A stretch of 33,397 bases of DNA from Thermodesulfobacteriota bacterium (lineage in GTDB: Bacteria > Desulfobacterota > UBA8473). Shown piece by piece: positions 11,512 through 32,720 of this stretch. The stretch is taken from contig JAXHSZ010000068.1 of NCBI GenBank assembly GCA_034190725.1, forward strand, positions 1 through 33,397. Direction: 5' to 3'. The translations under genes and the position numbers were made by a program. The notes under the pieces are model-generated. The model saw only the letters and a list, made by a program, of their open reading frames with translations. It was not told the DNA's origin and made no database searches. How positions within the stretch are numbered: position 1 is the first letter of the stretch; each line of letters starts with the position of its first letter.

Positions 11512-11557
11512 TAATAAGAAATCGCAAGGTCTCATTCCATGGAGGTGAAGGTTGAAA

Positions 11558-12115
11558 ATGGAATACAAAACGTCAGACGAAAAGAGAAAGATGAGGGTAT
11601 TAATGGCAAAACCCGGAATCGACACCCATTGGAGGGGTGCTTTTGTTATTGCTCAGGCGCTCAGGGATGCCGGGATGGAGGTGATTTACACAGGAACGTA
11701 TAAAAGTCCTGAGATGGTATTGAATATGGCCATAGAAGAAGATGTGGATGTCATTGCCATGAGTTTTATGGGCGGGTCCCACGTACCTTTGTCCAGAGAG
11801 ATCGTGAAATTGGTCAAAGAAAAGGAGGCTGAGGATATCTGTCTTATTGCCGGTGGGATCATCAGGGATTCCGATAAAGAGGTATTACAGGAAATGGGGA
11901 TTTCCGGGCTGTATGGGCCCGGCACTCCCTTGGACCTCATAGTCGGCCATATTGCCCAGAGGATCAGGAGGGAGAGATGGAATCAACCCGTCTGTTGTAA
12001 AGAGTGTGCCATGTTTTCCCCAACGCAAGAGAATGAGAGAGAAGTTGAGTGTAACGGTACGGTTGTGTCACATGATACAGAGGTCACGGACTGCCTTGAT
12101 TTTCGGTTTTCATGA
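11558..12115 (+). CDS. cobalamin-binding small subunit (B12-binding Rossmann domain) with an atypical Cys-rich tail of about 45 aa
   Basis: The DxHxxG motif is present as GIDTHWRG in RVLMAKPGIDTHWRGAFVIAQAL, with downstream SF..GG and GGII blocks. GGAGGTGAAGG lies upstream of ATG 11558. The tail is NQPVCCKECAMF...ECNG...DCLDFRFS. Confidence 0.85.
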   Translation: MEYKTSDEKRKMRVLMAKPGIDTHWRGAFVIAQALRDAGMEVIYTGTYKSPEMVLNMAIEEDVDVIAMSFMGGSHVPLSREIVKLVKEKEAEDICLIAGGIIRDSDKEVLQEMGISGLYGPGTPLDLIVGHIAQRIRRERWNQPVCCKECAMFSPTQENEREVECNGTVVSHDTEVTDCLDFRFS

Positions 12116-16965: not shown

Positions 16966-16990
16966 ATGCGAATTTATTTTTGCCCTGCCC

Positions 16991-18509: not shown

Positions 18510-19556
18510 TTGGCTAAGATTGATGTGTTGCTTAACATGATGATAGAGTATGGGGCTTCTGATTTGCATGTTTCCGCAGGAAATCCTCCTATGCTCAGAA
18601 TCAACGGTGAATTACAGAGAACAAAATATCATGATCTTTCTCCCAAAGAAGCTGAAGTCCTTCTTCTTGAGATGTTGGATGAAGAGACGCTGGAACTTCT
18701 GAAGAAGAAGAGGGATATTGATTTTGCATATGAACTTGAAAATAAAGGTCGTTTTCGTGCCAATGTTTTCATGGAAAAAAACGGATATGGAGGAGCATTC
18801 CGTCTAATTCCTACACAGATAAAGACTCTCAGGGAACTTATGCTCCCTGAGTCCATCTATTCCCTTGCGCGTATGAAGAGCGGTCTTGTATTGGTAACAG
18901 GACCAACGGGATCAGGCAAATCCACGACTCTCGCTTCTATGATAGATTTAATGAATAAGGAGAATAATTATCACATCATCACTCTAGAAGATCCAATAGA
19001 ATTTATATATCCCAAAGGGAAATGCCTTATACACCAAAGGCAAATGGGTTTTCATGTAGATAGCTTTTCTTCAGGTCTGAGGGCCGGCTTGAGAGAGGAC
19101 CCTGATGTTATTCTTGTCGGGGAGATGAGAGATCTGGAGACAATCCATCTGGCACTGACAGCATCAGAGACAGGACTTTTGGTCCTCGCCACTCTCCATA
19201 CTTCCAGTGCTGCCCAGACAATTGATCGTATCATAGATGTATTTCCCACATCACAGCAACCTCAGGTCAGAACCATGCTGAGTGAATCCTTACGTGGAGT
19301 GATTGCACAACAATTATTAATACGATCTGATAAGAAGGGCAGAGTTGCAGCCGTGGAAGTAATGATATGCAATCAGGCCATCCGGAATCTGATTAGAGAG
19401 GGGAAAACGTATCAAATATCTTCCGTGCTTCAGACAGCTCGATCTAAGGGGATGCAGACCTTAGAAAGCCACATCACGGAACTGGTGGGACAGGATTTGA
19501 TAAGTGAGGAGGAAGCAAATTTATACAGAAAGGACAATGAAGCAGTCTCCCAATGA
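18510..19556 (+). CDS. pilT: PilT-type type IV pilus retraction ATPase
   Basis: It carries GASDLHVSAGNPPMLRINGEL, Walker A GPTGSGKST, Asp box LEDPIEF, Walker B VILVGEMRD and an intact His box ATLHTSSA. The size of about 348 aa fits. The start is TTG at 18510; ATG 18537 is an alternative. Confidence 0.9.
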   Translation: MAKIDVLLNMMIEYGASDLHVSAGNPPMLRINGELQRTKYHDLSPKEAEVLLLEMLDEETLELLKKKRDIDFAYELENKGRFRANVFMEKNGYGGAFRLIPTQIKTLRELMLPESIYSLARMKSGLVLVTGPTGSGKSTTLASMIDLMNKENNYHIITLEDPIEFIYPKGKCLIHQRQMGFHVDSFSSGLRAGLREDPDVILVGEMRDLETIHLALTASETGLLVLATLHTSSAAQTIDRIIDVFPTSQQPQVRTMLSESLRGVIAQQLLIRSDKKGRVAAVEVMICNQAIRNLIREGKTYQISSVLQTARSKGMQTLESHITELVGQDLISEEEANLYRKDNEAVSQ

Positions 19557-21582
19557 GATGATGGATGACATCATAAGACTGAGAACATATCTCATACAAA
19601 AGGGTCGATTAACAGAGGACCAGTTTCTTCAAGCGGAAGACTATGCCCTTACACGGAAGATGTCCATTGATGAAGCCATTCTCTTTCTCAACCTTATGGA
19701 TTATACGGAATTTGGAGAGAGTCTGGCTGAGATTTATGGAAAATCTTATCATCCTTTATTAGAAGAGCCTCCTCAAGGGACTGCCAGAGAATTTGTTCCA
19801 TTGAAGCTGGCTGAGAAATGGAATATTTTTCCCGTAAACTACGATCCAAAAAAAAAGATCCTCACACTTGCAATTGATAACCCGGAAGATCATTTGATAA
19901 TCGGTCAAATCCAAACGATCTTCCCCGCAGGTGTAAAACTGGTATTTTTTGTGGCATCGAAGGCAGAGATTGCAAAGGCCATAGACGTCCACTATAGGGG
20001 TAGGACATACACACCCGAACGGGATCTGGAGGTCCCCCATGATTTCGCCATATTAGGTTCTGAGAAAGAAACTGAAGAAGAAATAGAAATAGATTGTGAA
20101 GAGGAGATCAGAACAAAAAAGAAAATACTTGTTCTTGAACCTGATTTCACTCGCGCCGGCGCCCTGAAAACCATCCTTCGCTGTGAGGGGTATCGGGACG
20201 TGAGTTGGATTTTATCACTGCAGGATATGATAGATACACTCAGAAAAAATTCACCGGACTTTTTATTGGTGAACAACCGCACCTTCCAGCGTCAGGGATC
20301 CTGGCTCAAGGATATTCCAAAAGATATTGATCTTCCACATATATCATACTATGATCTTTCCCCTTTACTATTTGGACAAGAATATCCCTACCATCAGATG
20401 AGTGAAGCCTTAATTGATCTCACGGCATTTCTTGTGAGAAAAAGTCTGGAGAATGATGCAGACAAACTCCAAGAGACACTCACCAGAGTGCGGCTTTGCA
20501 AGCTTTTAGCATTGAGGTTGCATCTCTTCCCTGCTCAAGTAGATGCTACAGTTCTGGCTGCATGGTTTTCAACACGGGGAGTAGGGAAAGATCTGTTAGG
20601 CAGTATAACTACTCCTTACCATCTGGAAGAAATTCTTAATTTCAAGTTGAGTACGGAGAATGGACGAAGGATAGAATCGACCATTCTGGAGATGGTCATT
20701 GTATATCAGAGCTTGAGAAGAAGTGAATCTGAAATGTCTCAGGACATCAATCGACTCAGGAGTATACTGAGCAGACAATTTCCTTCTGGAGAGTATGAAA
20801 GAATCTTGGAAACCTTTCTGCATCTCATCAAGGATGAGGAATTTTTAAAAAGAGTTGATCATCATGGAGGAATTATCCTTATTGTTGATTCCAAAGAGTC
20901 CAAAGAATCGAGTATGTCTCTCCGACTGAGTAATGATGGGTACCAGATAGAGGTTGTTTCGGATGTTCGTGAGGCGATAAAAACTCTATCCCAATTCAGA
21001 GTTGACTTGATCATTTCCGAGGTCAATCTACCAGAGACCGATGGCCTGAGCTTCTGCCGGACTATCAGAGAAAACTCTCTTGGGGGAGACGTTTCTTTTT
21101 TCTTTCTCACAGAAGAAGAAGGGGAGAGACTCCCGGCGAAATGCCTGGAAGCCGGCGCCGATGACTTCCTAAAAAAACCAGTGGATATGGAAATCCTCTC
21201 CTTAAAGATTGCGCGTGTGCTGGCTTTAAAAGGTTCCCAAAAATCAAAGAGAGGTGTCAATGGATCTCTTAAAGAGATGAACTCCACGGATTTTATTCAA
21301 AGCCTTTCCGAAGGGCATAAGGATGTTGAGATAACCCTTAAAAGTATGGGTGAAAAAGGCATTATCTATATGCAGTCAGGAGAAATTATTCATGCTTCCC
21401 TGGGTGACCTTTACGGAGAAAATGCATTTTACCGGCTCATGACATGGCAAGATGGGGAATTTCAGATCGTCCCCTATTCCACCTTCCCACCTCGAACTAT
21501 TCATCACAGCACCATGTCCCTTTTGATGGAAGCGGCCCGTATCGCTGATGAAGCCAACGCAGCAGAAGATGAAGAATGTTGA
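19537..21582 (+). CDS. multidomain signalling protein: T2SSE_N (GspE/PilB N-terminal) domain, pseudo-receiver, HD-like degenerate region, receiver with Asp->Glu acceptor, DUF4388
   Basis: The T2SSE_N pattern is FVPLKLAEKWNIFPVNYDPKKKILTLAIDNPED. REC-like 1 has FLLVNN in place of the acceptor Asp. REC 2 reads DLIISEVNLPETDG (GAG codon 21019-21021) and keeps LT and KKP. The C-terminal DUF4388 pattern is GSLKEMNSTDFIQSL...GIIYMQSGEIIHA...GENAFYRLMTWQDGEF. The gene overlaps or abuts the pilT stop at 19556, so the start (19537 or 19558) is uncertain. Confidence 0.8.
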   Translation: MKQSPNEMMDDIIRLRTYLIQKGRLTEDQFLQAEDYALTRKMSIDEAILFLNLMDYTEFGESLAEIYGKSYHPLLEEPPQGTAREFVPLKLAEKWNIFPVNYDPKKKILTLAIDNPEDHLIIGQIQTIFPAGVKLVFFVASKAEIAKAIDVHYRGRTYTPERDLEVPHDFAILGSEKETEEEIEIDCEEEIRTKKKILVLEPDFTRAGALKTILRCEGYRDVSWILSLQDMIDTLRKNSPDFLLVNNRTFQRQGSWLKDIPKDIDLPHISYYDLSPLLFGQEYPYHQMSEALIDLTAFLVRKSLENDADKLQETLTRVRLCKLLALRLHLFPAQVDATVLAAWFSTRGVGKDLLGSITTPYHLEEILNFKLSTENGRRIESTILEMVIVYQSLRRSESEMSQDINRLRSILSRQFPSGEYERILETFLHLIKDEEFLKRVDHHGGIILIVDSKESKESSMSLRLSNDGYQIEVVSDVREAIKTLSQFRVDLIISEVNLPETDGLSFCRTIRENSLGGDVSFFFLTEEEGERLPAKCLEAGADDFLKKPVDMEILSLKIARVLALKGSQKSKRGVNGSLKEMNSTDFIQSLSEGHKDVEITLKSMGEKGIIYMQSGEIIHASLGDLYGENAFYRLMTWQDGEFQIVPYSTFPPRTIHHSTMSLLMEAARIADEANAAEDEEC

Positions 21583-22122: not shown

Positions 22123-24441
22123 TCATGCAACACAGACTCTTCTCACTTCATCAATATCAGTCAATCCCATAAAAACCTTATTGATTCCATCTTGTTTCAT
22201 AGTAGTCATTCCATCTCTTATTGCTTGTTCAAAAAGGTCCCCTTCGGTTGCCCGTTCTTTGATCAGACCTTTTATTTGAGGCGTCCCTTCCATCAATTCA
22301 TGTATGCCTATACGTCCTTTGTAACCGGAATGAGTGCATAGGTCGCAGCCCACAGGACGATAGAGTTTAAGATCAGGACTAAAATCCCCTTTAAAGGCCT
22401 TAAATTGTCCATTACCATAATCGGAAACAATATCCTCAAACTCCTCTTTTGAGGGGTGATATTCCTCACGGCAGTTTGTGCATAGTCTTCTGACAAGCCT
22501 TTGAGCAAGCACACCCAGGAGAGCATGAGAGAGATTGAGTTGATTCAAGCCGGTGCTCAGGAGTGTGGTCACTGTTTCACAAGCACCTTCCGTATTGAGG
22601 GATGAAAAGACGAGATGTCCGGTCAGCGAGGCTTGTATTGCCATTGAGGCTGTTCTATCCTCCTGCATCTCACCGATCATGATAACATCCCCATCGGCTA
22701 ATAAAAGAAAGCGCATAATCCTTGTAAAATCTAATCCTATTCCAGGTTGTACCTCAATCTGTCTCATATCGGTCTGAACAATCTCCACAGGATCTTCTGC
22801 AGTCCAGATTTTGAGGTCTGACCTTTTGATATGAGCAAGGACACTGTGAAGGGTTGTGGTTTTTCCTGAACTGGTTGGGCCTGATACCAGCATAAGACCA
22901 TAAGGCTTTGTAAGGATGTTTTTGATTTTATCTAGATTTTTTTCACTCAATCCTATTTCATCCAGTGCCATTACATCGGTCTTCACCAATATTTTGACAA
23001 CAATATCCTCGACCTCTCCTATAGTTGGGATGGTGGTTACTCGAAGATCAAGAGGTGGTGTATCTTTTCCCTTGAATTTAATCTTCCCATCTTGAGGTAT
23101 GAATGTTTCTTCCTCATCGAGGTTGGCCATTGCTTTCAGTCTTGAAAGTAATTCCTGGGCCATGGACTGGGGTATGTGAAGATACTCCTGACAAACACCA
23201 TCCATTCTGAAGCGTATACCAGCTGACTTTGAATCGAATGACGGCTCGATGTGTATGTGTGATACTTTTTTTCGATACGCATCAACTAGAATCTGCTCCA
23301 ATAGCCCTATCACTTTATCAGATACTTCATCATCCCTCACACTGTACCCCTCTGTCTCAGTCATCACATCTGATTCAGACTTTACTTCTTTTCTCTCACC
23401 TTCACCCTCCTCTTGTCCATCATCCACTTGCTCCTTATCCTTCTCTGTTTCTCTCCCCATATCATATTTTTTTTCTTCCTCCAAATTCATGTCCGCATCT
23501 ACTTGGACCTTTTGACTTGTCTCCGGTTCTACTTCCGTTTCAGCATCCAAACTTTTTTCCAAGTTCAGAGCGATGTCATCGTCTGTGTCTATTCCTGCCT
23601 CAATCTTCCCATCTTCTTCATCAAGGGGGAAGTCAGAAATAAGATCAAAGTCCATTTCTATCTCATCAATGGTCATATCATTCTTTATAAAACTGTCCGG
23701 CGATCTCATTTCAGAGTCATGATGCTCATCTTCAGCATCTGCTTTCTGCAATTTTTCATTATCTACAATATATCCATCCGTTTCTGATCCTAAAGAAAAG
23801 TCAGTGGTAAGAGAATCTACTTTCTTTTTGATTTCAATATTGTCTGGGTCCTTTTCCACTGCTGACTTGTACAGATCAAAGGCCAGATCATTATGTTGCC
23901 TCTTTTCCATCTCCAGCCCAAGCAAAAACTGAATCCGCCCGGCCTCATCTTCATCGATGCCGTGTCTGTTGAAAAGGCTTTCTATCTGCTCTTTAACTGC
24001 TGTGGCAGGATAAATACTGAAGAGACATTCTGAAAGATTGGGGACTATTTTTCCAGGGGGATAATTATGTTCAAATAGCATTTCATATTTAGCGATTGCT
24101 TCTTTGAAAAGGCCAAGTTTCTTGAATGCTGATGCACTGTCCAGGATTTCCTCAACGCTTTCAATATCTGTTTTGTTCGCCATATTGATGGGAGGCTCTT
24201 GTGCTGAGAGTTCAGATGCTTCTGTAACTTCATCGTTTTGTTGTTCCCTGATTTCCTTTTTCAATGACGCAATCTTTTCTCTGATTTTTATTTGTTTATA
24301 TGCATCCAGTTCCGGGACATCTTGAAGAATTTGTTCATAGGACTGTAGGGAGTCTCCCAACAATCCCATTGAATAATAGACCTCTGATGCCCGTAATTTT
24401 GCTTCTACGTCGATTTTTTTTCCGGTTACATTCTCATTCAT
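22123..24441 (-). CDS. GspE/PilB-family secretion ATPase with a non-canonical N-terminus (TPR-like helices plus a polyacidic linker of about 160 aa) and a degenerate His box
   Basis: The core motifs are VSHIHIEP, Walker A GPTSSGKTT, Asp box AEDPVE, Walker B DVIMIGEMQE and the tetracysteine CTNC...CDLC. The His box reads SSLNTEG (AAT codon 22594-22596) instead of S/TLHTN. The SD GGTGGAG lies upstream. Confidence 0.85.
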   Translation of the reverse strand: MNENVTGKKIDVEAKLRASEVYYSMGLLGDSLQSYEQILQDVPELDAYKQIKIREKIASLKKEIREQQNDEVTEASELSAQEPPINMANKTDIESVEEILDSASAFKKLGLFKEAIAKYEMLFEHNYPPGKIVPNLSECLFSIYPATAVKEQIESLFNRHGIDEDEAGRIQFLLGLEMEKRQHNDLAFDLYKSAVEKDPDNIEIKKKVDSLTTDFSLGSETDGYIVDNEKLQKADAEDEHHDSEMRSPDSFIKNDMTIDEIEMDFDLISDFPLDEEDGKIEAGIDTDDDIALNLEKSLDAETEVEPETSQKVQVDADMNLEEEKKYDMGRETEKDKEQVDDGQEEGEGERKEVKSESDVMTETEGYSVRDDEVSDKVIGLLEQILVDAYRKKVSHIHIEPSFDSKSAGIRFRMDGVCQEYLHIPQSMAQELLSRLKAMANLDEEETFIPQDGKIKFKGKDTPPLDLRVTTIPTIGEVEDIVVKILVKTDVMALDEIGLSEKNLDKIKNILTKPYGLMLVSGPTSSGKTTTLHSVLAHIKRSDLKIWTAEDPVEIVQTDMRQIEVQPGIGLDFTRIMRFLLLADGDVIMIGEMQEDRTASMAIQASLTGHLVFSSLNTEGACETVTTLLSTGLNQLNLSHALLGVLAQRLVRRLCTNCREEYHPSKEEFEDIVSDYGNGQFKAFKGDFSPDLKLYRPVGCDLCTHSGYKGRIGIHELMEGTPQIKGLIKERATEGDLFEQAIRDGMTTMKQDGINKVFMGLTDIDEVRRVCVA

Positions 24442-24719: not shown

Positions 24720-25100
24720 CTATCTTGCAAAAAGATGCGTGAATCTTTTAATTTTTCCCATCTGCTTCAAATTGGGCAACAGAGTGTCGCAATTGAGTCG
24801 TAACATGGCAATTGGAGCGAAAACTCCCATAAGCACAAAGAGATATCCATGCTCTATTCTCCTGATATAAAGTCTGCTCTTTTCAAATAGTAAATCCGCT
24901 TCTCTGATTCCTTTCAATGAGTCAATAAAAAAGCCCCACCAGTCTTTTGTATGAGGATCTACTGGAGGTGGAGATAAAAACTCTTCAAATATGATCTCTC
25001 CCTGAAAAGAGACTAATATAACCCCTTTCACATCTTCAGTTGTCAAAATACAGTGCAATAGTTTCTTGATTTCTTTCTTGGATGGCAATTTCGTTTGCAT
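24720..25100 (-). CDS. Roadblock/LC7-like small protein (second MglB-type paralogue), tentative
   Basis: The 126-aa protein shows the pattern LLHCILTTEDVKGVILVSFQGEII...ADLLFEKSRLYIRRIEHGYLFVLM, typical of Robl_LC7 (alpha-beta-beta ... beta-beta). Confidence 0.5.
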   Translation of the reverse strand: MQTKLPSKKEIKKLLHCILTTEDVKGVILVSFQGEIIFEEFLSPPPVDPHTKDWWGFFIDSLKGIREADLLFEKSRLYIRRIEHGYLFVLMGVFAPIAMLRLNCDTLLPNLKQMGKIKRFTHLFAR

Positions 25101-25333: not shown

Positions 25334-26407
25334 TTATGCGAATGTATCATTTATAATTTGAATTATTTTTTCCTTAGGACACTTTGGACTGATTGAAATG
25401 ACTGTTGTCTCTTGACCAGGTAAAAGTATGAAATCATTTGATTCACCCCTGTCTATATAGGCAAGATTCAGTCTTCCTGCATCAAAGATTGCCCCCATTT
25501 TTCGTATCTGCGCCATGAAGCTGTTCCATGAATTGTCCTGATATATGTTCTCTAGCTCCCACTTTTTATCCATCTTTGCATCCAACTTACACTTAATATA
25601 ATCCGTGGGGTTCGTATCTTCTGTACCCCCATTTTTCACCAATTCATCTGGGTTTTCATCCTCATTAGAGGGAGCGCCTGGTTCTTCTCTCTGCTCACGC
25701 TCATCTTTAAGCCGCATTGCTTCAAGGAGGACTGCCTGAAGGTCGTTCTCGATCCTCTTTTTCTTATTAAAACATGCATTTTGGATTGAAAGGTTCGCTT
25801 CATCCCAAGAGAGAATTTCATATGCAGCGACTGTTCCTTGGATACTCCCAACTCTTGCATCAATCAGCGCACCTTCCTTGACAAAGAGTACTCCATGTTT
25901 CCCCGACTGCTTATCATTTAACCTAATGGTACATGTCTTCCTTTCCATATCCATCAACTGTAAAAACATCCCAGAAGAGATATCATGTAATATTCCACCC
26001 TCTGACTCCCTCTGTAAGATCATCTTAATTTTCCGAGTAAGATCACTGATCACAATGGGTTTTTCAATGTATTCCAAGGCATCTTCCATTTGGATCTGCC
26101 TCTTGAGGCTTTCTTTCCCATAACCGGTCATTATGAATACCGGAATATCCGGAAAGTGTTCAACGATATAAGCCCGGAGTGTAGCTCCATTCATTTGTGG
26201 CATTTTGAGGTCAGTAACCACCAGAGAGATGGGGTTTTCCTTCAGCATTTTTATGGCTTGAAAACCGTCTCTGGCGGTTATTACAGAAAAATGCTCATCG
26301 TGGTCTTCAAGGCTTTCTTTGAGAGAGCGCAACACCTCTAGATTATCGTCGACAATGAGTATCTTTTTCTTCATAATTTTAGTCAATGAATTTTCAGTTT
26401 CATCCAT
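25334..26407 (-). CDS. response regulator: canonical receiver, DUF4388, and an unknown C-terminal domain
   Basis: The receiver residues are KKILIVDD, VVTDLKMP, IMTGYG and EKP. The DUF4388 pattern is GILHDISSGMFLQLM...GVLFVKEGALIDA...GTVAAYEILSW. The start is either ATG 26407 (inside a 34-bp palindrome) or ATG 26371 (MKKKILIVDD). Confidence 0.85.
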   Translation of the reverse strand: MDETENSLTKIMKKKILIVDDNLEVLRSLKESLEDHDEHFSVITARDGFQAIKMLKENPISLVVTDLKMPQMNGATLRAYIVEHFPDIPVFIMTGYGKESLKRQIQMEDALEYIEKPIVISDLTRKIKMILQRESEGGILHDISSGMFLQLMDMERKTCTIRLNDKQSGKHGVLFVKEGALIDARVGSIQGTVAAYEILSWDEANLSIQNACFNKKKRIENDLQAVLLEAMRLKDEREQREEPGAPSNEDENPDELVKNGGTEDTNPTDYIKCKLDAKMDKKWELENIYQDNSWNSFMAQIRKMGAIFDAGRLNLAYIDRGESNDFILLPGQETTVISISPKCPKEKIIQIINDTFA

Positions 26408-26435: not shown

Positions 26436-27164
26436 TTACGGGAAACTGATCCTGTATCTTTTTAGCATATCGCAATGTCTCTTGAACCATGGATCTAAAT
26501 TCTTTTCAAGCTGATGCAGGATTCCAAGTTCATTGGCCGATTCCTTTACGGATTCTACTACCCCATATATGAGGTCTTGAGTGCTTGCATCCCCTTTAAA
26601 TGAAATCTTTTGATCAGAGTATTCGAATTCACCTGCAAACGGATCAAGAAAATCATACTTGCCAGCCAGTTCCACAAATTTCTTTTTGAGCAGAATACTG
26701 GACCCTGTCTTTATCTTCTTGTTTGAACCGACTGTTTGCTCGAATGCAATCAATAGTTCTTCGAGCATATTGAGCGCATTCGAAAATAATCTCCGACTCG
26801 TCTGTATCTTTCTCTTTTCTTTGTTTTCCATTGTAGGGGGAATCTTGCCGACGTTAAAAGTCCCCCCCCCTTCTTTTGTTTTTTGAATAAGGAGTTTTTG
26901 GTCTTCTTGGAAATTTCTGATCTTTCCGTTGTTCCACGAATACGACCCGACAACCATGTCTCCATTCTGGAAAAAGATGAGGCCCCTTTCCTCCCCTTTG
27001 CCTATTAATACATCCACATAACCGGTGAGCTTCTGAAAACTCATCTTTGTTAACAAACCTTCAAGATCAATGATGTCGACACTGAGGCCTTCATACATCA
27101 TCTTTGCGTTATATGCATTTGCCCAATAGTAGACTTTCTCATGATCTATATCATAGATGTTCAC
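26436..27164 (-). CDS. hypothetical protein with a DUF4388-like N-terminal module
   Basis: The GTG start overlaps the upstream stop (GTGA). The pattern LTGYVDVLIGKGEERGLIFFQNGDMVVGS resembles the DUF4388 core. The C-terminal half is unknown. Confidence 0.6.
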   Translation of the reverse strand: MNIYDIDHEKVYYWANAYNAKMMYEGLSVDIIDLEGLLTKMSFQKLTGYVDVLIGKGEERGLIFFQNGDMVVGSYSWNNGKIRNFQEDQKLLIQKTKEGGGTFNVGKIPPTMENKEKRKIQTSRRLFSNALNMLEELLIAFEQTVGSNKKIKTGSSILLKKKFVELAGKYDFLDPFAGEFEYSDQKISFKGDASTQDLIYGVVESVKESANELGILHQLEKNLDPWFKRHCDMLKRYRISFP

Positions 27165-27421
27165 TGTAAAATTATGGCTGCCTTTTTTTGCATGAGCAGA
27201 CCCACTGCTTTCTCGCCTTCGATCTCCCCGTATTTATTCTGAAAAACAGCTGTCAAAAGTTCGTCTTTGTCAAAGAAAATCATGCCTTCTGCGGAAACAG
27301 ACTTAAAATGGATCCCTCCTGCATCGAACTCCCCTTGATAGTGTTCCACAAGTCGCTCCATGTCGAGGTAATAGCTGTTCAGATTCTGAATAGAAGGCTT
27401 CTCTCTCGGAACAATAACCAT
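27161..27421 (-). CDS. small DUF4388-like protein (86 aa)
   Basis: The pattern FDAGGIHFKSVSAEGMIFFDKDELLTAVF...GEKAVGLLM resembles the DUF4388 core. It is translationally coupled to the next gene through a 4-nt overlap. Confidence 0.55.
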   Translation of the reverse strand: MVIVPREKPSIQNLNSYYLDMERLVEHYQGEFDAGGIHFKSVSAEGMIFFDKDELLTAVFQNKYGEIEGEKAVGLLMQKKAAIILQ

Positions 27422-27474
27422 TCGTCTCTCAAATTACACTTTTCAGGGTCTGTCATAAAAAAAGCATCACATCT

Positions 27475-28620
27475 TCAGGCTGCGTTCTTTGCTTTACGTC
27501 CTCGCAATCTCTCAATTGAAAGACGGATACTGTCCTGCATGCGTGAGACTGCTTCTGCCAGATCTTCTATTTCATCATTGGATTTTATTTCTATTTCTGC
27601 ATCCAACTCACCTATACTGATACGGTCCGCGGTTTCGGAGAGATGTCGGATTTTACCTGTAAGGCTACGTCCGTAGAGAAATATAATACATGCAATGGCG
27701 ACAAGCCCTGTCCCCATTGTTATCATATTGGCTCTTCTTATTTTTTCAGCAATCTGCGCTCCCTCTTTTTCCAGTATGTTAACGGGTGCATAGAGTTCAT
27801 CAAGGTAGAGAGTAGAACCAACAACATAGGATGTCCCTTCAACAGGAATACAAGCCATGTATTTCTCCCTTGTTCGCCCGTCCTTTTCATGCCATGTGTA
27901 GTAACCTGTTGAGCCCTTTCTGCCTTCCACTCCTGTAAGGGTTTTCCAAAATCCTTTAAAATTCTTCCCGAGAGTCTTTTTTAACTGGCTTAAATCAATG
28001 CCTACCAGGTGAGGGTTGGGATGGACCCATGCTCTCCAGATCCCATTTTCATCAGGCATCTCATAGAGAACAGTGTAACCGGTACGTCCTATCCTGTGGA
28101 GGACTACTTTCTTGAATTCTGGATCGCTATTGAAGTCCTCTTTTTTCAAGTCCGGGTGTTTCATGAGGTAGTTTTTAATCTGCATTGCTAAAAACTTGGA
28201 ATGACTATTTGTCTTCTCCTCTGTCATTCGTGTTATTATATTGACACTTTTATTTATTGTAAGCTCTTGCATGGATGACATGTTTCGTATTGAAAGAAAA
28301 ATACTGACGCTATAAATGATGATCAACGGCACAAGGATAAAAAACATAAATTTCGTTGTCAGACCAATTCTCCATGAACGCTTCCCGAAGATCTTCGCTA
28401 CACGATTTCCTGCATGCTTTTTTTGAATTGTAGGTTTGAAATGCGGCGTTGCCTTTTTTATGGCATGATAACCGTGTTGTGATTCCGAAGATCTGACATC
28501 AGGTTTCATTATGGTAATAACATGCCCACAAAACTGGCATTTCCCTTGGGCCGCATCTCCTTTAATTTTTGAAGGATCTACTCGATATTTTCCTCCGCAT
28601 TCCTCACAAAAAACAATCAT
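27475..28620 (-). CDS. membrane sensor: N-terminal MJ0042-type zinc ribbon, TM, Cache-like extracytoplasmic domain, TM, HAMP; no output domain
   Basis: The zinc ribbon is MIVFCEECGGKYRV...GKCQFCGHVI (CxxC...CxxC). The two hydrophobic segments are FMFFILVPLIIIYSVSIFL and MITMGTGLVAIACIIFLY. The HAMP region is LTGKIRHLSETADRISIGELDAEIEIKSNDEIEDLAEAVSRM, and the protein ends about 20 aa later. I prefer ATG 28620, with GAGGAG 7 nt upstream. Confidence 0.8.
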   Translation of the reverse strand: MIVFCEECGGKYRVDPSKIKGDAAQGKCQFCGHVITIMKPDVRSSESQHGYHAIKKATPHFKPTIQKKHAGNRVAKIFGKRSWRIGLTTKFMFFILVPLIIIYSVSIFLSIRNMSSMQELTINKSVNIITRMTEEKTNSHSKFLAMQIKNYLMKHPDLKKEDFNSDPEFKKVVLHRIGRTGYTVLYEMPDENGIWRAWVHPNPHLVGIDLSQLKKTLGKNFKGFWKTLTGVEGRKGSTGYYTWHEKDGRTREKYMACIPVEGTSYVVGSTLYLDELYAPVNILEKEGAQIAEKIRRANMITMGTGLVAIACIIFLYGRSLTGKIRHLSETADRISIGELDAEIEIKSNDEIEDLAEAVSRMQDSIRLSIERLRGRKAKNAA

Positions 28621-28631
28621 AGCTGAGCTCC

Positions 28632-29126
28632 TCAAGAAAGTTTCTTAGTATTATTGGAAATATCCGTTTCCTTAATTTTCTTGATCATATTCTGTTTAAA
28701 CCGTGTCATCTTCTCCTCTCGTTGTATCTGTCTGGCAAGCAAGTCAACCAACTCAGCTGCTCGACAACTCGGAAAATGTGATAGAGTATGATCCAGGTCA
28801 CTGACTGCATCATCGATCAATATCTCGGCTATTGGACCCACGGCCAAGGACAATTGAGCATTGAGATAATCAAAGAAGTCATCTTGCAGAATGGGAACAG
28901 CGCCCTCAACAGGTTCAACAAGCTCTAGTTTTAGAAGCTTGGAAATGATCTCCTTGATGATACCTATCTTTATACCCGTCTTCTGGGCTATTGTCCCAAG
29001 ATTTTTTTTGCCATCTAATTCCATAATGACTTTTAACATCTGGCTGGTCAGGGAAAACTCTCCAAGGTTGTCCCTCATTACGCGCTTGAAAACCATAACA
29101 TACGCTTCATTCAACGAAATATTCAT
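28632..29126 (-). CDS. hypothetical protein with a possible winged-helix (MarR-like) segment
   Basis: It contains the wHTH-like stretch NLGTIAQKTGIKIGIIKEIISKLLKLELVEPV. GGAG lies 9 nt upstream of the ATG. Its stop is followed at once by the SD of the next gene. Confidence 0.6.
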   Translation of the reverse strand: MNISLNEAYVMVFKRVMRDNLGEFSLTSQMLKVIMELDGKKNLGTIAQKTGIKIGIIKEIISKLLKLELVEPVEGAVPILQDDFFDYLNAQLSLAVGPIAEILIDDAVSDLDHTLSHFPSCRAAELVDLLARQIQREEKMTRFKQNMIKKIKETDISNNTKKLS

Positions 29127-29247: not shown

Positions 29248-31611
29248 TTACTTTTCTTCTCTCCATAATTTTAATTCTTCCCTGAGAGAGCTGAATTCTG
29301 ATTGTATTGTATTCTTTATCTCTTCCAATACATGAATAAAAGCTTCGTCAGTCCATGTCATTGTTCCCTCAGGTCGAGATAATCCATCCTCACTCTGTTG
29401 ATAGAAATCGACCATCTCTTCTCTGTTCTCTTCATATTCTCCCGATATGGCGGGGGCAATCATTTCCGGGATTATATCTTCTTCTTCAATTGTTTCACAA
29501 GGAGTATCAGTGTCTTCAACCCCTATAGCTCCATAATCTTCTGCTGATGCATCAAAGTCTACAATCTCTTCAGTGATTTGGTCGTCCTGATAAGTCAATT
29601 CCGGAAAATCCATTCCTCCCCCTTGATCTTCCGCATAGTCTAATAAACATGCATCTTCTATTGGCATCTGCAAAGCGTCATCTTGTTCTAAGACAGCCAA
29701 TTCCGAAACGTCAATCTCTTCATCTTCGGTTGCCATTTTATCCTGTGGGAATCCCTGAAACATTTTCGTTTCAAGGGTGGAATCCGCTTCTTGAACAGTC
29801 AATTCCTGAAGAGTATTTTCTTGCTCCGTTTCATCCATCATAGATTTATTCTGTGTAGTCATTCCAAACGAGCTGTATGCTTCTTCATTGGTCTTTTCCT
29901 TGACATGGATCTCTTCTTCATCGGTCATGTCATCCTGTACAGTGATATCCTGTGTGGTCATTTCAGGCATAATATATTCTTCTTTGTCGATTCCATCTTC
30001 GATAGAGATCTCTTCTTCATTGATCACATCATCCTGTACAACGATATCCTGTGCGGTCATTTCAGGCGTGATGTATCCTTCTTTATCTACTTCCCGGAAT
30101 TCTAACTCTTCCTCTTCGTCTTTTATCTCTAACTTTTGCTCAATCTCTTCATCGATACCAACACTTGTGTCTTTCTTCCGTTTTCCGAATAACCAGAATC
30201 TCCTTCTTCCTTTTTTCTTTTTAGAAGATATTTCTTCTTCATTGGTTGCACTGTCTTCAGTAAAAGTATCAGCAGAGATTATTGTGGGACCAAATTCTGG
30301 TTCCTCTGTAACCTCATCCGATATATTAATCTCTTTCTCTTCTCCAGTGAAATCTTCTTCTGATATTGTATCGGAGATCAGTATTTCAGGTGGGGCGTAC
30401 TCTTCTTCGTCAAGTGTCTTTCCGATATTTATCTCTTCCTCTATAGCAACAATTTCAGTTTCTGCAGGTGTGTCTTGAGATGGAATATCCTGTAATGTAA
30501 ATTTTTCTTCTATAAACTCATTTTGAGTCTCAATCATATCTTCTTGGTCCGGCATCTCATCATTGAACAGCACATGGGATTCCATTGTCGGAAGGACTTC
30601 ATCTTCTTCAGTTGTGACTTCATTCTCAGGCACTTGGGGCATCGTCATCTCATCGGATCTTTTTTCCATTCGTTCTGAGACAGCAGTTTTTTCTAAAGCA
30701 ATTTCTTTTTTAAATTCATTAAATGCATTCAACTCTGCAATGAAGATTTCATCCTTTTCTAATTCTGAAATCTCTTGGGATACCATCACCTTTTCCAGAC
30801 TATCACAAGCAGAGCAGAGTAATCTCATAGATTTCGGATTGGCTTTTTCCTTCTTTACTTGAATATATTTACCAATACCGCCAATGAGTTGAAGAAACAA
30901 AAGAGCAATCCTGTCTTCATTCCACATGTGCTTTAGCCTATTCATCTCATCGTTAAACCGCACCAAAACCTGATCTTTTATTTCCAAATCGAGTGATTCA
31001 ACAATTTCTTTTAAATTTTTCACTGGTGAATCAGGTATATCGGTGGCGTTATCTTCTTCCATCTCTGCAACAATTACAGTCTCAGGAGGAGTTTCTATTT
31101 CCATCGCCTCAACAAGAGGAAGTTCCATCTTTCTGGGAGTTTCTGTCTTTTCAAGGGCAATCTGTCTTTTCAGCTCATTGAATTTATTCAGTTCAATGCG
31201 AAACAACCTTTGCTTATTTTCTTCAGAAATTCCGTTTGTTAATGCCACCTTTTCGAGACTACTATAGGCAGAATGGAGCAATCCAATGGAACCATGATGG
31301 GCTTTGTCCCGCTTTTTTCTGATATATTGTCCAACCCCTCCAAGGAGCTGAAGGAACATAAGAATAGTTTTGTCATGCTTCCAAATCTCTTTTTGCCTGT
31401 CTATCTCGTTGTTGAATCTGTCCATTATCTGATCGGTAATCTCCCAATCGAGTGATAGAACTGCGACCTTCAAGTCTTTGATTGGCGAATCCTGCACGCC
31501 GAGGGAGGAGTCCTGTTCCTGACTGTCAGTTTGTATTTCATTTTCTCCAAAGAGTTCATCAAATCGTTCATCCAGTTCCATGGTAATCGTAACATCATCG
31601 TTATAATTCAA
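29248..31611 (-). CDS. hyperacidic repeat protein (787 aa), unknown function
   Basis: The TTG start at 31611 lies 7 nt after a GGAGGG that directly follows the mglA stop. The protein has two copies of a module of about 116 aa (31144-31491 and 30685-31032). It also has three 33-aa acidic repeats (29788-30084) and one basic/hydrophobic island, SSKKKKGRRRFWLFGKRKKD (30169-30228). Confidence 0.8.
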   Translation of the reverse strand: MNYNDDVTITMELDERFDELFGENEIQTDSQEQDSSLGVQDSPIKDLKVAVLSLDWEITDQIMDRFNNEIDRQKEIWKHDKTILMFLQLLGGVGQYIRKKRDKAHHGSIGLLHSAYSSLEKVALTNGISEENKQRLFRIELNKFNELKRQIALEKTETPRKMELPLVEAMEIETPPETVIVAEMEEDNATDIPDSPVKNLKEIVESLDLEIKDQVLVRFNDEMNRLKHMWNEDRIALLFLQLIGGIGKYIQVKKEKANPKSMRLLCSACDSLEKVMVSQEISELEKDEIFIAELNAFNEFKKEIALEKTAVSERMEKRSDEMTMPQVPENEVTTEEDEVLPTMESHVLFNDEMPDQEDMIETQNEFIEEKFTLQDIPSQDTPAETEIVAIEEEINIGKTLDEEEYAPPEILISDTISEEDFTGEEKEINISDEVTEEPEFGPTIISADTFTEDSATNEEEISSKKKKGRRRFWLFGKRKKDTSVGIDEEIEQKLEIKDEEEELEFREVDKEGYITPEMTAQDIVVQDDVINEEEISIEDGIDKEEYIMPEMTTQDITVQDDMTDEEEIHVKEKTNEEAYSSFGMTTQNKSMMDETEQENTLQELTVQEADSTLETKMFQGFPQDKMATEDEEIDVSELAVLEQDDALQMPIEDACLLDYAEDQGGGMDFPELTYQDDQITEEIVDFDASAEDYGAIGVEDTDTPCETIEEEDIIPEMIAPAISGEYEENREEMVDFYQQSEDGLSRPEGTMTWTDEAFIHVLEEIKNTIQSEFSSLREELKLWREEK

Positions 31612-31623: not shown

Positions 31624-32229
31624 CTATTTCAGTTCCTCTTGCAAGGATGATATAGTTGTGGATATTATCCTTTTCAGTGTGGGAAGCACATTTTCTCCTG
31701 TTACAGCACTGGCCTCAAAAGAAGGTACCTTCAAACGCCCGTTAAGGTCTTTTTCCAGTGTTTCTAAAGATAAGAGAGGAATACCATCTTCTTTGAGGTC
31801 CCTTTTGTTATATTGCAATACAAGGGGAACCCTGAAGATGTTCTTATTATGAGCCGTCAAGTTTTCTTGAAGACTCTTGAGAGATAAAAGATTCTTTTCT
31901 CTTCTCACTGCCATGGAGTCAGCAACAAAAACAACACCATCCACCCCTTTCAAAACCAAGCGTCTGGTTGCATTATACTTCACCTGTCCCGGCACTGTGT
32001 AGAGTTGTATTCGAACAGCATATCCCTTTATCTTCCCCACATCAAAAGGAAGAAAATCAAAGAAGAGGGTTCGGTCTCCATAAGTCTTTATACTGACCAT
32101 ATCCGATTTGACCCTCTCTTTAAATCGTGTATTTATATATTCGAGATTCGTGGTCTTCCCACCCCTACCAGGGCCATAGTAGACTATTTTTACCTGTACC
32201 TCTTTGTTTTTGAGATTGATGAATGCCAA
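31624..32229 (-). CDS. mglA: MglA-family Ras-like small GTPase
   Basis: It matches MglA landmarks closely: FINLKNKEVQVKIVYYGPGRGGKTTNLEYI, GDRTLFFDFLP, LYTVPGQV, LKGVDGVVFVADS and LQYNKRDL. I place the start at TTG 32229, 5 nt after GGAGGGA, which gives (M)AFIN... as in MglA. The ORF-track start at 32244 would include the SD. Confidence 0.92.
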   Translation of the reverse strand: MAFINLKNKEVQVKIVYYGPGRGGKTTNLEYINTRFKERVKSDMVSIKTYGDRTLFFDFLPFDVGKIKGYAVRIQLYTVPGQVKYNATRRLVLKGVDGVVFVADSMAVRREKNLLSLKSLQENLTAHNKNIFRVPLVLQYNKRDLKEDGIPLLSLETLEKDLNGRLKVPSFEASAVTGENVLPTLKRIISTTISSLQEELK

Positions 32230-32327
32230 AACTGATCCCTCCAAAATACTGGTTCAATTCTCATACCGACTGGACCAATCGGACTGATAAAGCAAAGAAA
32301 ATAAGAAATGAGGTGAAGAATTCCTCA

Positions 32328-32720
32328 TTAATGTTCCCACACATCTCTCAATTTATTGGCAGCCTCTGCCACTTTCAGGCGGAGAAAACCCAGAGAGATA
32401 TCTTTCCCGAATAGGATGATCAGAAGAAAATCACCATTCACCTTGCTGAAATGCATACTTTTCTCTTGCCCTTTGTGAAAGAGCAGTGAAAACTCGTCTT
32501 CTCCAATGATGTTTGCCATGGCATTCACAGCACCGAAATTACCTGCACCCAATGCTGCTAAAGAATACACATCATGATCGCTCTCTCCATTGTCGCATCT
32601 TGCAATAATATTGCCTGCCATATCAATAAAAATGACGGAGTTGGCACCAACTTCGATCAGGTCCTCTGCCAGAATGGTCTCAATCCTATCAAGTTGTTCA
32701 GGGGTAAAACTGTATTCCAT
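32328..32720 (-). CDS. mglB: MglB-type Roadblock/LC7 protein (cognate GAP of MglA)
   Basis: The Robl_LC7 pattern is GANSVIFIDMAGNIIA...SLAALGAGNFGAVNAMANIIGEDEFSLLFHKG...FLLIILFG. It sits directly upstream of mglA, as in the classical mglBA operon. The SD GAGGTGA lies upstream. Confidence 0.85.
   Translation of the reverse strand: MEYSFTPEQLDRIETILAEDLIEVGANSVIFIDMAGNIIARCDNGESDHDVYSLAALGAGNFGAVNAMANIIGEDEFSLLFHKGQEKSMHFSKVNGDFLLIILFGKDISLGFLRLKVAEAANKLRDVWEH

What the first reader, a model, noticed from the sequence alone, without database searches (positions are those of the whole stretch)
22123..24441. PilB/GspE-family ATPase with TPR-like head, 160-aa polyacidic linker and a His-box His->Asn substitution
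Residues from about 375 to 772 form a recognisable secretion-ATPase core: VSHIHIEP, GPTSSGKTT, AEDPVE, DVIMIGEMQE and the intact tetracysteine CTNC/CDLC. Three things are unusual. (1) The His box reads SSLNTEG where the family has (S/T)LHT(N/S), with an AAT codon at 22594-22596. The conserved LRQDPD block reads LLADGD, losing an Arg. The neighbouring PilT has a normal ATLHTS. (2) The usual T2SSE_N domain(s) are absent. They are replaced by about 210 aa of helical, TPR-like sequence (YYSMGLLGDSLQSYEQILQ, AFKKLGLFKEAIAKYEMLF, LAFDLYKSAVEKDPDN). (3) The two parts are joined by a D/E-rich low-complexity linker of about 160 aa (23329-23808). In Myxococcus a separate TPR protein (SgmX) is reported to link MglA-GTP to pilus activation. 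A TPR head fused to the ATPase could be a built-in version of that link. The His-box change raises the question of whether it hydrolyses ATP normally.
Basis: partly seen in the sequence, partly recalled or inferred. Interest (0 to 1): 0.65.

Follow-up and report, generated by a model that had tools for sequence, protein, structure and literature searches.

The report
Degenerate TPR-headed PilB-like ATPase
This gene encodes a pilus-motor-type ATPase that belongs to a large, unstudied family of sulfate-reducer proteins encoded beside the polarity GTPase MglA. In this lineage it has lost one regulatory domain and several ATP-splitting residues yet is still kept by selection, so it probably acts as a regulator or scaffold rather than a motor.

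Summary
ORF 22123-24441(-) encodes a 772-aa T2SSE ATPase with a TPR head, a 160-aa D/E-rich disordered linker and Asn (AAT, 22594-22596) at the second His-box histidine.

The context changes the reading. The TPR head is not unusual here. More than 100 homologs of about 785 aa in Desulfobacteria have TPR head + T2SSE_N/MshEN + ATPase with fully canonical motifs. They sit at the end of a conserved mglB-mglA-...-HAMP sensor-...-REC-PATAN operon (mglA upstream in 43 of 54 loci). The window gene is the positional ortholog.

What is special is a lineage-specific degeneration, shared with one 85%-identical ENA relative and with strain variants in marine-sediment metagenomes:
- The MshEN body is gone and the acidic linker sits in its place.
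- Family-invariant residues are replaced: H616N, arginine finger R483K, R447F, R581L, R593Q and D594E.
- In all, 46 of 207 conserved core columns are changed.

The Walker A Lys, Asp box, catalytic Glu, first His, Zn cysteines and the TPR head are kept. dN/dS is about 0.24, like the neighbouring genes, and the variants differ only synonymously across the His box.

Best reading: an ATP-binding but hydrolysis-impaired scaffold or switch in an MglA/PATAN-controlled pilus pathway. Biochemistry was not tested.

The parts
22123..24441 (-). Whole gene: 772-aa TPR-headed PilB/GspE-clade ATPase (P0001), last gene of the mglBA-PATAN operon
23797..24417 (-). TPR-like all-helical head, aa 9-215 (ten helices), with a low-confidence loop at aa 72-93 (24163-24228)
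   Evidence: AF2 pLDDT 81-92. The family head profile hits PDB TPR proteins and Foldseek matches only TPR proteins. Its divergence from the family is normal: 39% identity vs 41% among relatives.
23743..23793 (-). Remnant of the start of the family's T2SSE_N/MshEN region (LGSETDGYIVDNEKLQK, against family SGSKYDYLL..V.T.QLQK)
   Evidence: The family profile HMM aligns P0001 only up to node 227 (aa 233).
23323..23796 (-). D/E-rich disordered linker, aa 216-373, in the place of the MshEN body (family HMM nodes 228-352 have no counterpart)
   Evidence: dN/dS is 0.50.
23611..23649 (-). FDLISDFPLDEED: possible relic of the family's conserved FDxIPDVSFEEEE motif, which follows MshEN in relatives. The match is weak.
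   Evidence: HMM domain 2 scores -1.2 bits, not significant. It is conserved between P0001 and P0002.
22942..23319 (-). N2D domain, aa 375-500. It holds F447 (family R, 23101-23103), R467 (first arginine finger, kept, 23041-23043) and K483 (second arginine finger, family R, 22993-22995).
   Evidence: Mapping to PilB_Gm R271/R286 rests on motif spacing and the text of PMC5424180.
22855..22881 (-). Walker A, GPTSSGKTT. K527 is kept. G524S occurs only in this sequence.
22783..22800 (-). Asp box, AEDPVE, intact
22660..22704 (-). LLADGD-VIMIGEMQE, the Walker B region. The catalytic E591 is kept. R581L, P584G, R593Q and D594E are changes at family-invariant positions.
22585..22623 (-). His box, TGHLVFSSLNTEG. 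H609 is kept. H616N (AAT, 22594-22596), T614S, N618E and S619G are changed.
   Evidence: Strain variants keep it with only synonymous changes.
22336..22482 (-). Tetracysteine Zn site (CTNC 22471-22482, CDLC 22336-22347), intact
24720..25100 (-). Conserved 126-aa protein with no Pfam match, directly upstream. It has homologs at the same place in 54 of 104 related loci.
25334..26407 (-). REC-PATAN (DUF4388/PatA_N) response regulator, conserved upstream partner
26436..29126 (-). Three conserved operon genes: a 242-aa protein of unknown function, a Zn-ribbon-Cache-HAMP sensor (27475-28635) and a 164-aa DUF8082-like protein (28632-29126)
29248..31611 (-). 787-aa protein. Its N-terminal module is homologous to proteins of about 180-290 aa at this place in related operons. 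Here the module is duplicated and followed by an acidic tail of about 450 aa.
31624..32244 (-). MglA-like small GTPase, median 71% identity to the GTPases of related operons
32328..32720 (-). MglB-like Roadblock/LC7 protein
   Evidence: Pfam Robl_LC7, 24 bits vs a 23-bit cut-off. NCBIfam MglB, 53 bits, below its cut-off.

Best explanation
What it is: a lineage-specific, degenerate ortholog of a large uncharacterised family of PilB/GspE-clade hexameric ATPases in Desulfobacteria. The family architecture is TPR head, T2SSE_N/MshEN-like domain, N2D, and CTD with a Zn site. Family members are encoded as the last gene of a conserved mglB-mglA-...-HAMP sensor-...-REC-PATAN operon.

What changed in the window's lineage (marine-sediment Desulfobacteria):
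- The MshEN-like domain was lost. A D/E-rich disordered linker of about 160 aa stands in its place.
- The residues that contact the ATP gamma-phosphate, or couple neighbouring subunits to it, were replaced. These are the second His-box histidine (to Asn), the second arginine finger (to Lys), and three further invariant arginines (to Phe, Leu and Gln).

What was kept: the parts needed to bind Mg-ATP and to fold (Walker A Lys, Asp-box Glu, Walker B/catalytic Glu, first His, Zn cysteines), and the TPR head.

Inferred mechanism: the protein still binds nucleotide and probably still oligomerises, but it hydrolyses ATP slowly or not at all. It would then act as a nucleotide-dependent scaffold or switch rather than a motor. 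It would be held through its TPR head in the MglA/MglB-PATAN polarity and signalling module, which in other bacteria steers type IV pilus extension ATPases.

Shown here: the family, the synteny, the derived substitutions, the domain loss and purifying selection. Inferred: impaired hydrolysis, oligomerisation, the partners of the TPR head and a pilus-related output.
For: Family and orthology:
- More than 100 homologs of about 785 aa carry PF05157 + PF00437 plus TPR.
- The same operon order is seen in L002, L004 and many other loci.
- mglA lies upstream on the same strand in 43 of 54 loci with more than 9 kb of flank, and mglB in 38 of 54. REC-PATAN lies within 2.6 kb upstream in 59 of 104 loci.

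Derived degeneration:
- In 118 of 118 relatives R447, R483, R581, R593, H616, N618, P584, D594 and D395 are invariant. All are changed in P0001 and P0002.
- 160 of 161 His boxes in the fetched loci have His. The one Asn is the P0002 locus.
- Conserved columns changed: 46 of 207 in the core, 21 of 34 in the middle region, 2 of 12 in the head.
- Core identity to relatives is 61%, against 78% among relatives. The middle region is 21% against 57%. The head is 39% against 41%.
- MglA, MglB, the DUF8082-like protein and the 126-aa protein show no such excess divergence.

Role of the lost residues:
- In G. metallireducens PilB, H420 and R286 coordinate the gamma-phosphate, and the two arginine fingers are completely conserved across PilT-like ATPases (PMC5424180).
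- Offset 196 maps T327, E357, T411, H413 and H420 onto T523, E553, T607, H609 and N616.
- PilT H229A (the second His) abolishes twitching and lowers ATPase activity (PMC10187167).

Still under selection:
- dN/dS against P0002 is 0.22 (head), 0.24 (core) and 0.50 (linker). The neighbouring genes give 0.21-0.23.
- Contigs of further strains in three other marine-sediment runs keep SSLNTEG. All 6 differences there are synonymous, including AAT to AAC at N616. LLADGD and Q593-E594 are also kept.

Precedents for the partners:
- The TPR protein SgmX links MglA-GTP to PilB (PMC7519303).
- PATAN domains bind PilB1 (bioRxiv 10.1101/2021.06.11.447907).
Against: - No biochemistry. Asn and Lys are polar or cationic and could partly replace His and Arg at the gamma-phosphate, so residual or even normal hydrolysis is not excluded.
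- The AF2 model of the ATPase core was poor (pLDDT 36-68). The geometry of the altered site could not be examined.
- No pilin, PilC or PilM gene lies in the window or in the related operons. A pilus output is inferred only from homology and from the PilT-like neighbour.
- I could not establish whether the same genome also has a canonical paralog that does the motor work.
- The dN/dS values come from one pair of close sequences and are moderate (about 0.2-0.3).
Confidence: 0.55

Rival explanations
1. Fully competent motor ATPase with a rewired active site. Asn616 and Lys483 take over gamma-phosphate coordination, and the other substitutions are co-adapted. The protein would still power a type IV pilus or T2SS-like machine, only with altered kinetics or regulation.
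For: - The Walker A Lys, Asp-box Glu, catalytic Glu591, first His, first arginine finger R467, R651 and the Zn site are all intact.
- H to N and R to K are chemically conservative.
- The derived states are themselves under purifying selection, as expected if they matter for a working site.
Against: - The replaced residues are invariant in 118 of 118 relatives.
- The arginine fingers are reported as completely conserved in the superfamily (PMC5424180).
- Alanine replacement of the equivalent His kills PilT function.
- Three further arginines go to non-basic residues (F, L, Q).
- The T2SSE_N domain is lost at the same time. From general knowledge of GspE/PilB, this domain usually couples these ATPases to the membrane platform or to c-di-GMP.
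Confidence: 0.25
2. The TPR head is a built-in SgmX/Bd2492-like adaptor that binds MglA-GTP directly. This is a property of the whole family and is compatible with either catalytic state.
For: - mglA and mglB are conserved in the same operon (43 and 38 of 54 loci). In L006 and L093 the GTPase gene lies immediately upstream.
- The head is conserved at the normal family rate even where the rest has degenerated.
- MglA-GTP binds the TPR protein SgmX, and MglA did not bind PilB directly in M. xanthus (PMC7519303).
Against: - Gene neighbourhood is not contact.
- The head gives only generic TPR matches. Homology to SgmX was not tested.
- The PATAN regulator or the conserved 126-aa protein encoded directly upstream are equally plausible ligands.
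- Standalone head-like proteins and a head-MshEN protein without an ATPase exist, so the head may serve another purpose.
Confidence: 0.35
3. A gene on its way to becoming a pseudogene. Selection on the motor was relaxed after loss of its machine, and the substitutions and the low-complexity linker are decay.
For: - The excess divergence is concentrated in the functional motifs and the MshEN region.
- The linker has the highest dN/dS, 0.50.
- The T2SSE score drops from 392 to 324 bits.
Against: - The 772-codon frame is intact in two independent assemblies.
- Core dN/dS of 0.24 equals that of the neighbouring genes.
- Only synonymous differences occur across the His box in further strains.
- The head and the C-terminal Zn domain are well conserved.
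Confidence: 0.07
4. Assembly or sequencing artefact, or a chimera of two genes.
For: None found.
Against: - The same architecture and the same substitutions occur in an independent ENA contig at 85% aa identity with the same neighbours.
- They also occur in Logan contigs of runs from four other studies.
Confidence: 0.01

Closest known systems
PilB, the type IVa pilus extension ATPase (G. metallireducens 5TSG/5TSH, M. xanthus 3JC8)
   Same: - N2D + CTD core matches at E about 1e-76.
- Walker A, Asp box, atypical Walker B with catalytic Glu, first His and the tetracysteine Zn site are present.
- As for PilB, regulation by MglA and by PATAN regulators is plausible.
   Different: - Below the NCBIfam PilB cut-off (374 vs 676 bits).
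- Second His is Asn, and the second arginine finger is Lys.
- No MshEN/T2SSE_N domain.
- An extra TPR head.
- Not encoded with pilC, pilM or pilin genes.
GspE/EpsE, the type II secretion ATPase (1P9R, 4KSS, 4PHT)
   Same: Best sequence match among solved structures (E 1e-78). It shares the Zn-binding C-terminal subdomain and the PilB/GspE-clade Arg (R651 here).
   Different: - Below the GspE cut-off (383 vs 630 bits).
- No N1E domain for GspL.
- R to L in LRQDPD and R to Q in GEIRD.
- No T2SS genes nearby.
The unnamed Desulfobacteria TPR-MshEN-T2SSE family (e.g. P0003, P0010, P0085, P0110)
   Same: - Same head, same core and same length.
- Same operon: mglB-mglA-...-ZnR/HAMP-...-REC-PATAN-small protein-ATPase.
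- The window gene is its positional ortholog.
   Different: Relatives keep MshEN (PF05157) and all canonical catalytic residues. P0001 and P0002 have lost them.
SgmX (M. xanthus) and Bd2492 (Bdellovibrio), TPR effectors of MglA-GTP
   Same: A TPR module in a genetic or functional unit with MglA and a PilB-type ATPase (PMC7519303).
   Different: - SgmX is a separate 1,060-aa protein.
- Here the TPR module is fused to the ATPase.
- Homology and MglA binding were not tested.
PatA-type (PATAN) response regulators acting on PilB1 in Synechocystis
   Same: A REC-PATAN gene lies directly upstream in most loci. PATAN is reported to bind PilB1 and PilC.
   Different: - The domain order here is REC then PATAN.
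- The interaction was not tested.
- The system is from a different phylum.
PilT H229A / His-box mutants
   Same: The same position is altered as in N616 (second His of the His box).
   Different: - That is a laboratory Ala mutant of a retraction ATPase (no twitching, lower ATPase).
- Here a natural Asn is conserved among strains and accompanied by many other changes.

Membership tests
T2SSE superfamily (Pfam PF00437) | Match to the family profile above the gathering score | tested here: met
   324.4 bits vs 24.9, covering aa 375-768 and profile positions 6-370 of 370
PilB/GspE clade | Walker A GxxGxGK[ST] with the Lys | tested here: met
   GPTSSGKTT, with K527 present. The fourth Gly is Ser in this sequence only.
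PilB/GspE clade | Asp box (EDPxE) and atypical Walker B followed by the catalytic Glu | tested here: met
   AEDPVE 548-553 and DVIMIGE591
PilB/GspE clade | His box with both histidines (TGHxxxSTLHT) | tested here: not met
   TGHLVFSSLNTEG. The first His is kept and the second is Asn. 160 of 161 relatives have His.
PilB/GspE clade | Two arginine fingers in N2D (PilB_Gm R271 and R286) | tested here: not met
   R467 is kept. Position 483 is Lys, where 118 of 118 relatives and GspE have Arg. The mapping to R286 rests on motif spacing.
PilB/GspE clade | Tetracysteine Zn-binding motif | tested here: met
   C654, C657, C699 and C702 are invariant in the alignment
PilB/GspE clade | N-terminal T2SSE_N / MshEN (GSPII) domain | tested here: not met
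   No PF05157 hit at E<=1. The family profile has no counterpart for nodes 228-352. Relatives have the domain.
NCBIfam equivalogs PilB (TIGR02538) and GspE (TIGR02533) | Score above the curated equivalog cut-off | tested here: not met
   373.8 vs 675.65 bits and 383.1 vs 630.25 bits
MshE-type c-di-GMP receptor ATPases | Tandem RLGxx(L/V/I)(L/V/I)xxG(L/V/I)(L/V/I)xxxxLxxxLxxQ motifs | tested here: not met
   The domain is absent in P0001. The motif was found in 0 of 120 sequences (P0001, P0002 and 118 relatives), even with a loosened pattern. The motif is taken from PMC5013675.
TPR repeat proteins | Helix-turn-helix repeats recognised by TPR profiles or fold | tested here: met
   The single sequence is below Pfam cut-offs. 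The family head profile hits PDB TPR proteins at E 1e-32 to 4e-6. Foldseek matches of the AF2 head model are all TPR proteins. Relative P0110 passes the TPR_14 cut-off.
Desulfobacteria TPR-MshEN-T2SSE operon family (unnamed) | Head homologous over its full length, and position as last gene after REC-PATAN and a small protein in an mglBA operon | tested here: met
   The family profile aligns aa 9-233 (194 bits) and 336-771 (666 bits). Synteny is shown.
SgmX/Bd2492 MglA effectors | Direct binding of MglA-GTP, and sequence homology to SgmX | not tested
Only gene neighbourhood supports a link.
Catalytically inactive pseudo-ATPase | Binds but does not hydrolyse ATP | not testable with these tools
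   Needs enzyme assays. The sequence shows only the loss of gamma-phosphate ligands.

The most novel reading that the evidence does not exclude
Desulfobacteria may possess a so far undescribed class of MglA-operon-encoded PilB-like ATPases in which the MglA/PATAN adaptor (a TPR head) is built into the motor. In this marine-sediment lineage the motor half would have been converted into a conserved, ATP-binding but non-hydrolysing pseudo-enzyme. That would be a natural separation of the scaffold or switch function of a pilus ATPase from its motor function.
Probability: 0.3. Interest if true: 0.7.

Novelty: new variant of a known kind. Interest (0 to 1): 0.55.

Why it matters
How small GTPases of the MglA type reach the pilus extension motor is known only for Myxococcus, where they act through the separate TPR protein SgmX. 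Here a family has the TPR module fused to the ATPase, and the ATPase gene lies in the mglBA operon in about 80% of loci. This would offer a simpler and widespread system for studying that coupling.

The degenerate variant in this window is a natural experiment. It keeps the head and the nucleotide pocket but has lost the gamma-phosphate sensors and the T2SSE_N domain. It can therefore show which functions of such ATPases need hydrolysis and which need only binding and scaffolding. If it is inactive, it would be, to my knowledge, one of the first conserved pseudo-enzymes described in the PilB/GspE clade.

Tried and rejected
- In-situ decay of MshEN. A global MAFFT alignment suggested decay at unchanged length. 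A profile HMM of the relatives finds no MshEN signal in aa 234-335 and only a weak FDLISDF relic. Deletion plus linker expansion cannot be told apart from in-situ decay.
- Transfer of the MshEN domain to the neighbouring 692-aa MshEN-REC-PATAN protein. There is no cross-hit between its MshEN region and the ATPase family. Rejected.
- Linker as a tandem repeat. None found.
- More members of the degenerate clade. There were none among GTDB species representatives or JGI metagenome contigs. Only P0002 turned up in the 5.8-billion-protein search. Strain variants were found only through Logan contigs.
- Full-length AF2 model. The core was modelled poorly (pLDDT 36-68), probably because the alignment was shallow and redundant. 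I drew no conclusion from it.
- NJ trees with midpoint rooting. They put the root on the P0001/P0002 stem, so they say nothing about rates. I used identity contrasts with the operon neighbours instead.
- Literature. I found no paper on this family. The EpsE arginine-mutant paper I remembered was not in the library, so roles for the LRQDPD and GEIRD arginines are not cited.
- c-di-GMP sensing as the lost function. The relatives' MshEN domains lack the binding motif, so this is unlikely.
Full report
**1. Observation**

The window has an intact 772-codon ORF at 22123..24441 on the minus strand.
- Pfam T2SSE covers aa 375-768 (324 bits).
N616 is codon AAT at 22594-22596.
- HMMER alignments to solved GspE structures place SSLNTEG opposite STLHTNT, LLADGD opposite LRQDPD, GEMQE opposite GEIRD and GPTSSGKT opposite GPTGSGKS. 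The His box is correctly identified, and its second histidine is Asn.
- No T2SSE_N/MshEN match exists even at E<=1.
- Residues 212-371 are 35.6% Asp+Glu with net charge -41. They are not a tandem repeat. AlphaFold2 predicts them as disordered, with pLDDT 21-30 over aa 215-373.
- The head (aa 9-215) is confidently all-helical (pLDDT 81-92).
- A profile of family heads hits TPR proteins in the PDB. Foldseek returns only TPR proteins such as CTPR, OGT, SPINDLY, MamA and LapB.

'D/E-rich' is a better description than 'polyacidic'.

**2. The family**

The protein search returned 1,499 hits with E<=1e-20. The best 120 are almost all 767-803 aa, from Desulfobacterales, Desulfobacteraceae or Thermodesulfobacteriota MAGs, and carry PF05157 (MshEN) plus PF00437, often with TPR hits.
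- Alignments show a common architecture: TPR head, MshEN-like domain, short acidic FDxIPDVSFEEEE linker, N2D, and CTD with four cysteines.
- In these relatives the catalytic motifs are textbook: GPTGSGKTT, AEDPVE, LRADPDVIMIGEMRD, TGHLVFSTLHTNSA and DIAERRLPQDGKIK.
- The TPR head is thus a family trait that sits in front of T2SSE_N. It is not a replacement for it.
- A head-profile search of 1.84 billion cluster representatives found 90 proteins at E<=1e-30 and 597 at E<=1e-10.
- I found no paper describing this family.

**3. Genomic context**

In the window the gene is last in a minus-strand row. The order is:
- mglB-like Roadblock/LC7 (32328-32720)
- mglA-like GTPase (31624-32244)
- a 787-aa protein
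- a DUF8082-like protein
- a Zn-ribbon-Cache-HAMP sensor
- a 242-aa protein
- a REC-PATAN response regulator (25334-26407)
- a 126-aa protein
- the ATPase

The same order is seen around canonical family members P0110 and P0085.
- Across the fetched loci with more than 9 kb upstream, 43 of 54 have the mglA homolog and 38 of 54 the mglB homolog upstream on the same strand.
- Of 104 loci with more than 2.5 kb upstream, 59 have REC-PATAN and 54 have the small protein directly upstream.
- Other members have the GTPase gene immediately upstream and a chemosensory cluster (REC-PAS, MCP, CheW, CheA) downstream.

The window gene is therefore the positional ortholog of a family that is genetically tied to MglA/MglB and PATAN regulators. 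Neither the window nor the examined loci (L002-L006) carry pilin, pilC or pilM genes.

**4. What is special in this lineage**

Only one database protein is close: P0002, at 85% identity, on an ENA contig with the same neighbours. Against 118 relatives, P0001 and P0002 share replacements at positions that are invariant in all 118:

| Family residue | P0001/P0002 |
|---|---|
| R447 | F |
| R483 | K |
| R581 | L |
| P584 | G |
| R593 | Q |
| D594 | E |
| H616 | N |
| N618 | E |
| D395 | H |

- In total, 46 of 207 core columns conserved at >=95% are changed. The figure is 21 of 34 in the middle region but only 2 of 12 in the head.
- A motif scan of all fetched loci found His at the second His-box position in 160 of 161 cases. 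The exception is the P0002 locus.
- Core identity of P0001 to the relatives is 61%, against 78% among relatives. The middle region is 21% against 57%. The head is 39% against 41%, which is ordinary.
- Some operon partners show no excess divergence. MglA is 0.71 against 0.69, MglB 0.62 against 0.60, the DUF8082-like protein 0.50 against 0.46 and the 126-aa protein 0.41 against 0.42.
- REC-PATAN, the ZnR-HAMP sensor and the 242-aa protein are modestly lower (0.45 vs 0.54, 0.42 vs 0.52 and 0.40 vs 0.45).

The acceleration is therefore concentrated in the MshEN and ATPase parts of this one gene, with only modest excess in three operon partners.

A profile of the relatives aligns P0001 at aa 9-233 and 336-771. 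It leaves family nodes 228-352, the MshEN body, without a counterpart. The acidic linker stands in their place.

**5. What the lost residues do**

[quoted passage not shown] R271 pairs with the Asp-box E357. The two arginine fingers are described as completely conserved in PilT-like ATPases (PMC5424180).
- With an offset of 196, T327, E357, T411, H413 and H420 fall on T523, E553, T607, H609 and N616.
- By spacing, R257, R271 and R286 fall on K453, R467 and K483.
- Both gamma-phosphate ligands are therefore altered (His to Asn, Arg to Lys). Mg-ATP binding residues and the catalytic Glu are kept.
- In P. aeruginosa PilT, mutating the second His (H229A) abolishes twitching and lowers ATPase activity (PMC10187167).

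Inference: nucleotide binding is retained and hydrolysis and/or inter-subunit coupling is impaired.

**6. It is not decaying**

- Nei-Gojobori dN/dS between the window gene and the P0002 gene is 0.22 (head), 0.24 (core) and 0.50 (linker). REC-PATAN gives 0.21 and the 126-aa gene 0.23.
- The sequence is held by marine and marine-sediment metagenome runs from several studies.
- Contigs of diverged strains in X3, X8 and X9 cover the His-box and Walker B region.
- In the X3 contig, all six differences between aa 605 and 628 are synonymous. They include AAT to AAC at N616, which also appears in an X9 contig.
- LLADGD, E591, Q593 and E594 are unchanged in the X8/X9 contig.

The derived state is itself conserved.

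**7. Mechanism proposed**

The family is a PilB/GspE-clade ATPase whose TPR head most plausibly docks it to products of its own operon. Two precedents support this:
- The TPR protein SgmX binds MglA-GTP and is needed for polar PilB localisation, while MglA did not bind PilB directly (PMC7519303).
- The PATAN domain of PatA-type regulators binds PilB1.

In the window's lineage the protein keeps the head and a nucleotide pocket but has lost T2SSE_N and the gamma-phosphate sensors. I therefore favour an ATP-binding, hydrolysis-impaired scaffold or switch (confidence about 0.55) over a rewired but active motor (0.25) or a decaying gene (0.07).

The relatives' MshEN domains lack the c-di-GMP-binding motif in 0 of 120 cases. 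The lost domain was therefore probably a protein-interaction module, not a c-di-GMP sensor.

**8. Comparison and novelty**

- The protein is a member of the T2SSE superfamily and of the unnamed Desulfobacteria family.
- It fails the NCBIfam equivalog cut-offs for PilB and GspE.
- It fails three defining features of the clade: the second His, the second arginine finger and the T2SSE_N domain.
- It is best called a new variant of a known kind.

**9. Limits**

- There are no enzyme data.
- The AF2 core model was poor.
- Complex prediction was not possible.
- The rest of the genome is unknown, so a canonical paralog or pilus genes elsewhere cannot be excluded.
- dN/dS rests on one close pair plus short contigs.

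Noticed in passing
window 29248-31611 (-): The 787-aa operon protein has its N-terminal module of about 125 aa duplicated (aa ~40-165 and ~195-320), followed by an extremely acidic low-complexity tail of about 450 aa. Homologs at this place in related operons are only about 180-290 aa. This is a second acidic expansion in the same operon.
   Followed up: partly
window 18510-19556 (+): The PilT-like ATPase passes the PilT/PilU family cut-off (458 vs 319 bits) and has ATLHTS and AIRNLIRE. It reads TGL instead of TGH at the first His of the His box.
   Followed up: partly
window 19504-21582 (+): A 692-aa protein with an N-terminal MshEN domain, a long middle part with no match, then REC and PATAN (DUF4388). 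It lies convergent with the ATPase and its listed GTG start overlaps the end of the PilT-like gene. The DUF6812-like gene between it and the ATPase recurs only in the P0002 locus, suggesting a lineage-specific arrangement. Its MshEN region shows no similarity to the ATPase family's.
   Followed up: partly
window 4106-12115 (+): A TetR regulator, two tandem glycyl-radical (PFL-like) enzymes, a methylmalonyl-CoA-mutase-like protein and a B12-binding protein. This is an anaerobic radical-enzyme cluster unrelated to the finding.
   Followed up: no
window 15655-17887: An AAA_22 ATPase resembling the XrtA/PEP-CTERM-associated ATPase (151 bits, below its cut-off) lies next to a strong 298-aa TPR protein on the opposite strand.
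   Followed up: no
P0231, P0234, P0251, P0262, P0266; P0122 (one search hits): The head also occurs in standalone proteins of about 250-270 aa with Pro/Ala-rich or basic tails. P0122 (498 aa) has head + MshEN followed by a C-terminal part with no Pfam match and no ATPase. The head-MshEN unit therefore looks modular.
   Followed up: partly
related loci L002-L166 / proteins P0003-P0120: The MshEN-like domain of the canonical family lacks the published c-di-GMP-binding motif in all 120 sequences checked. It also has Lys, not Arg, at the PQDG(R/K) position.
   Followed up: yes
L006 1-9988: One family member lies just downstream of a gas-vesicle gene cluster (GvpL/F, GvpG, GvpK, GvpA) and an Arf-like GTPase.
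   Followed up: no
L042 and L082 (both from MAG CAZCVB01): One MAG carries two family members, one of them without mglBA within 9 kb upstream. Paralogs of the family can therefore coexist in a genome.
   Followed up: no
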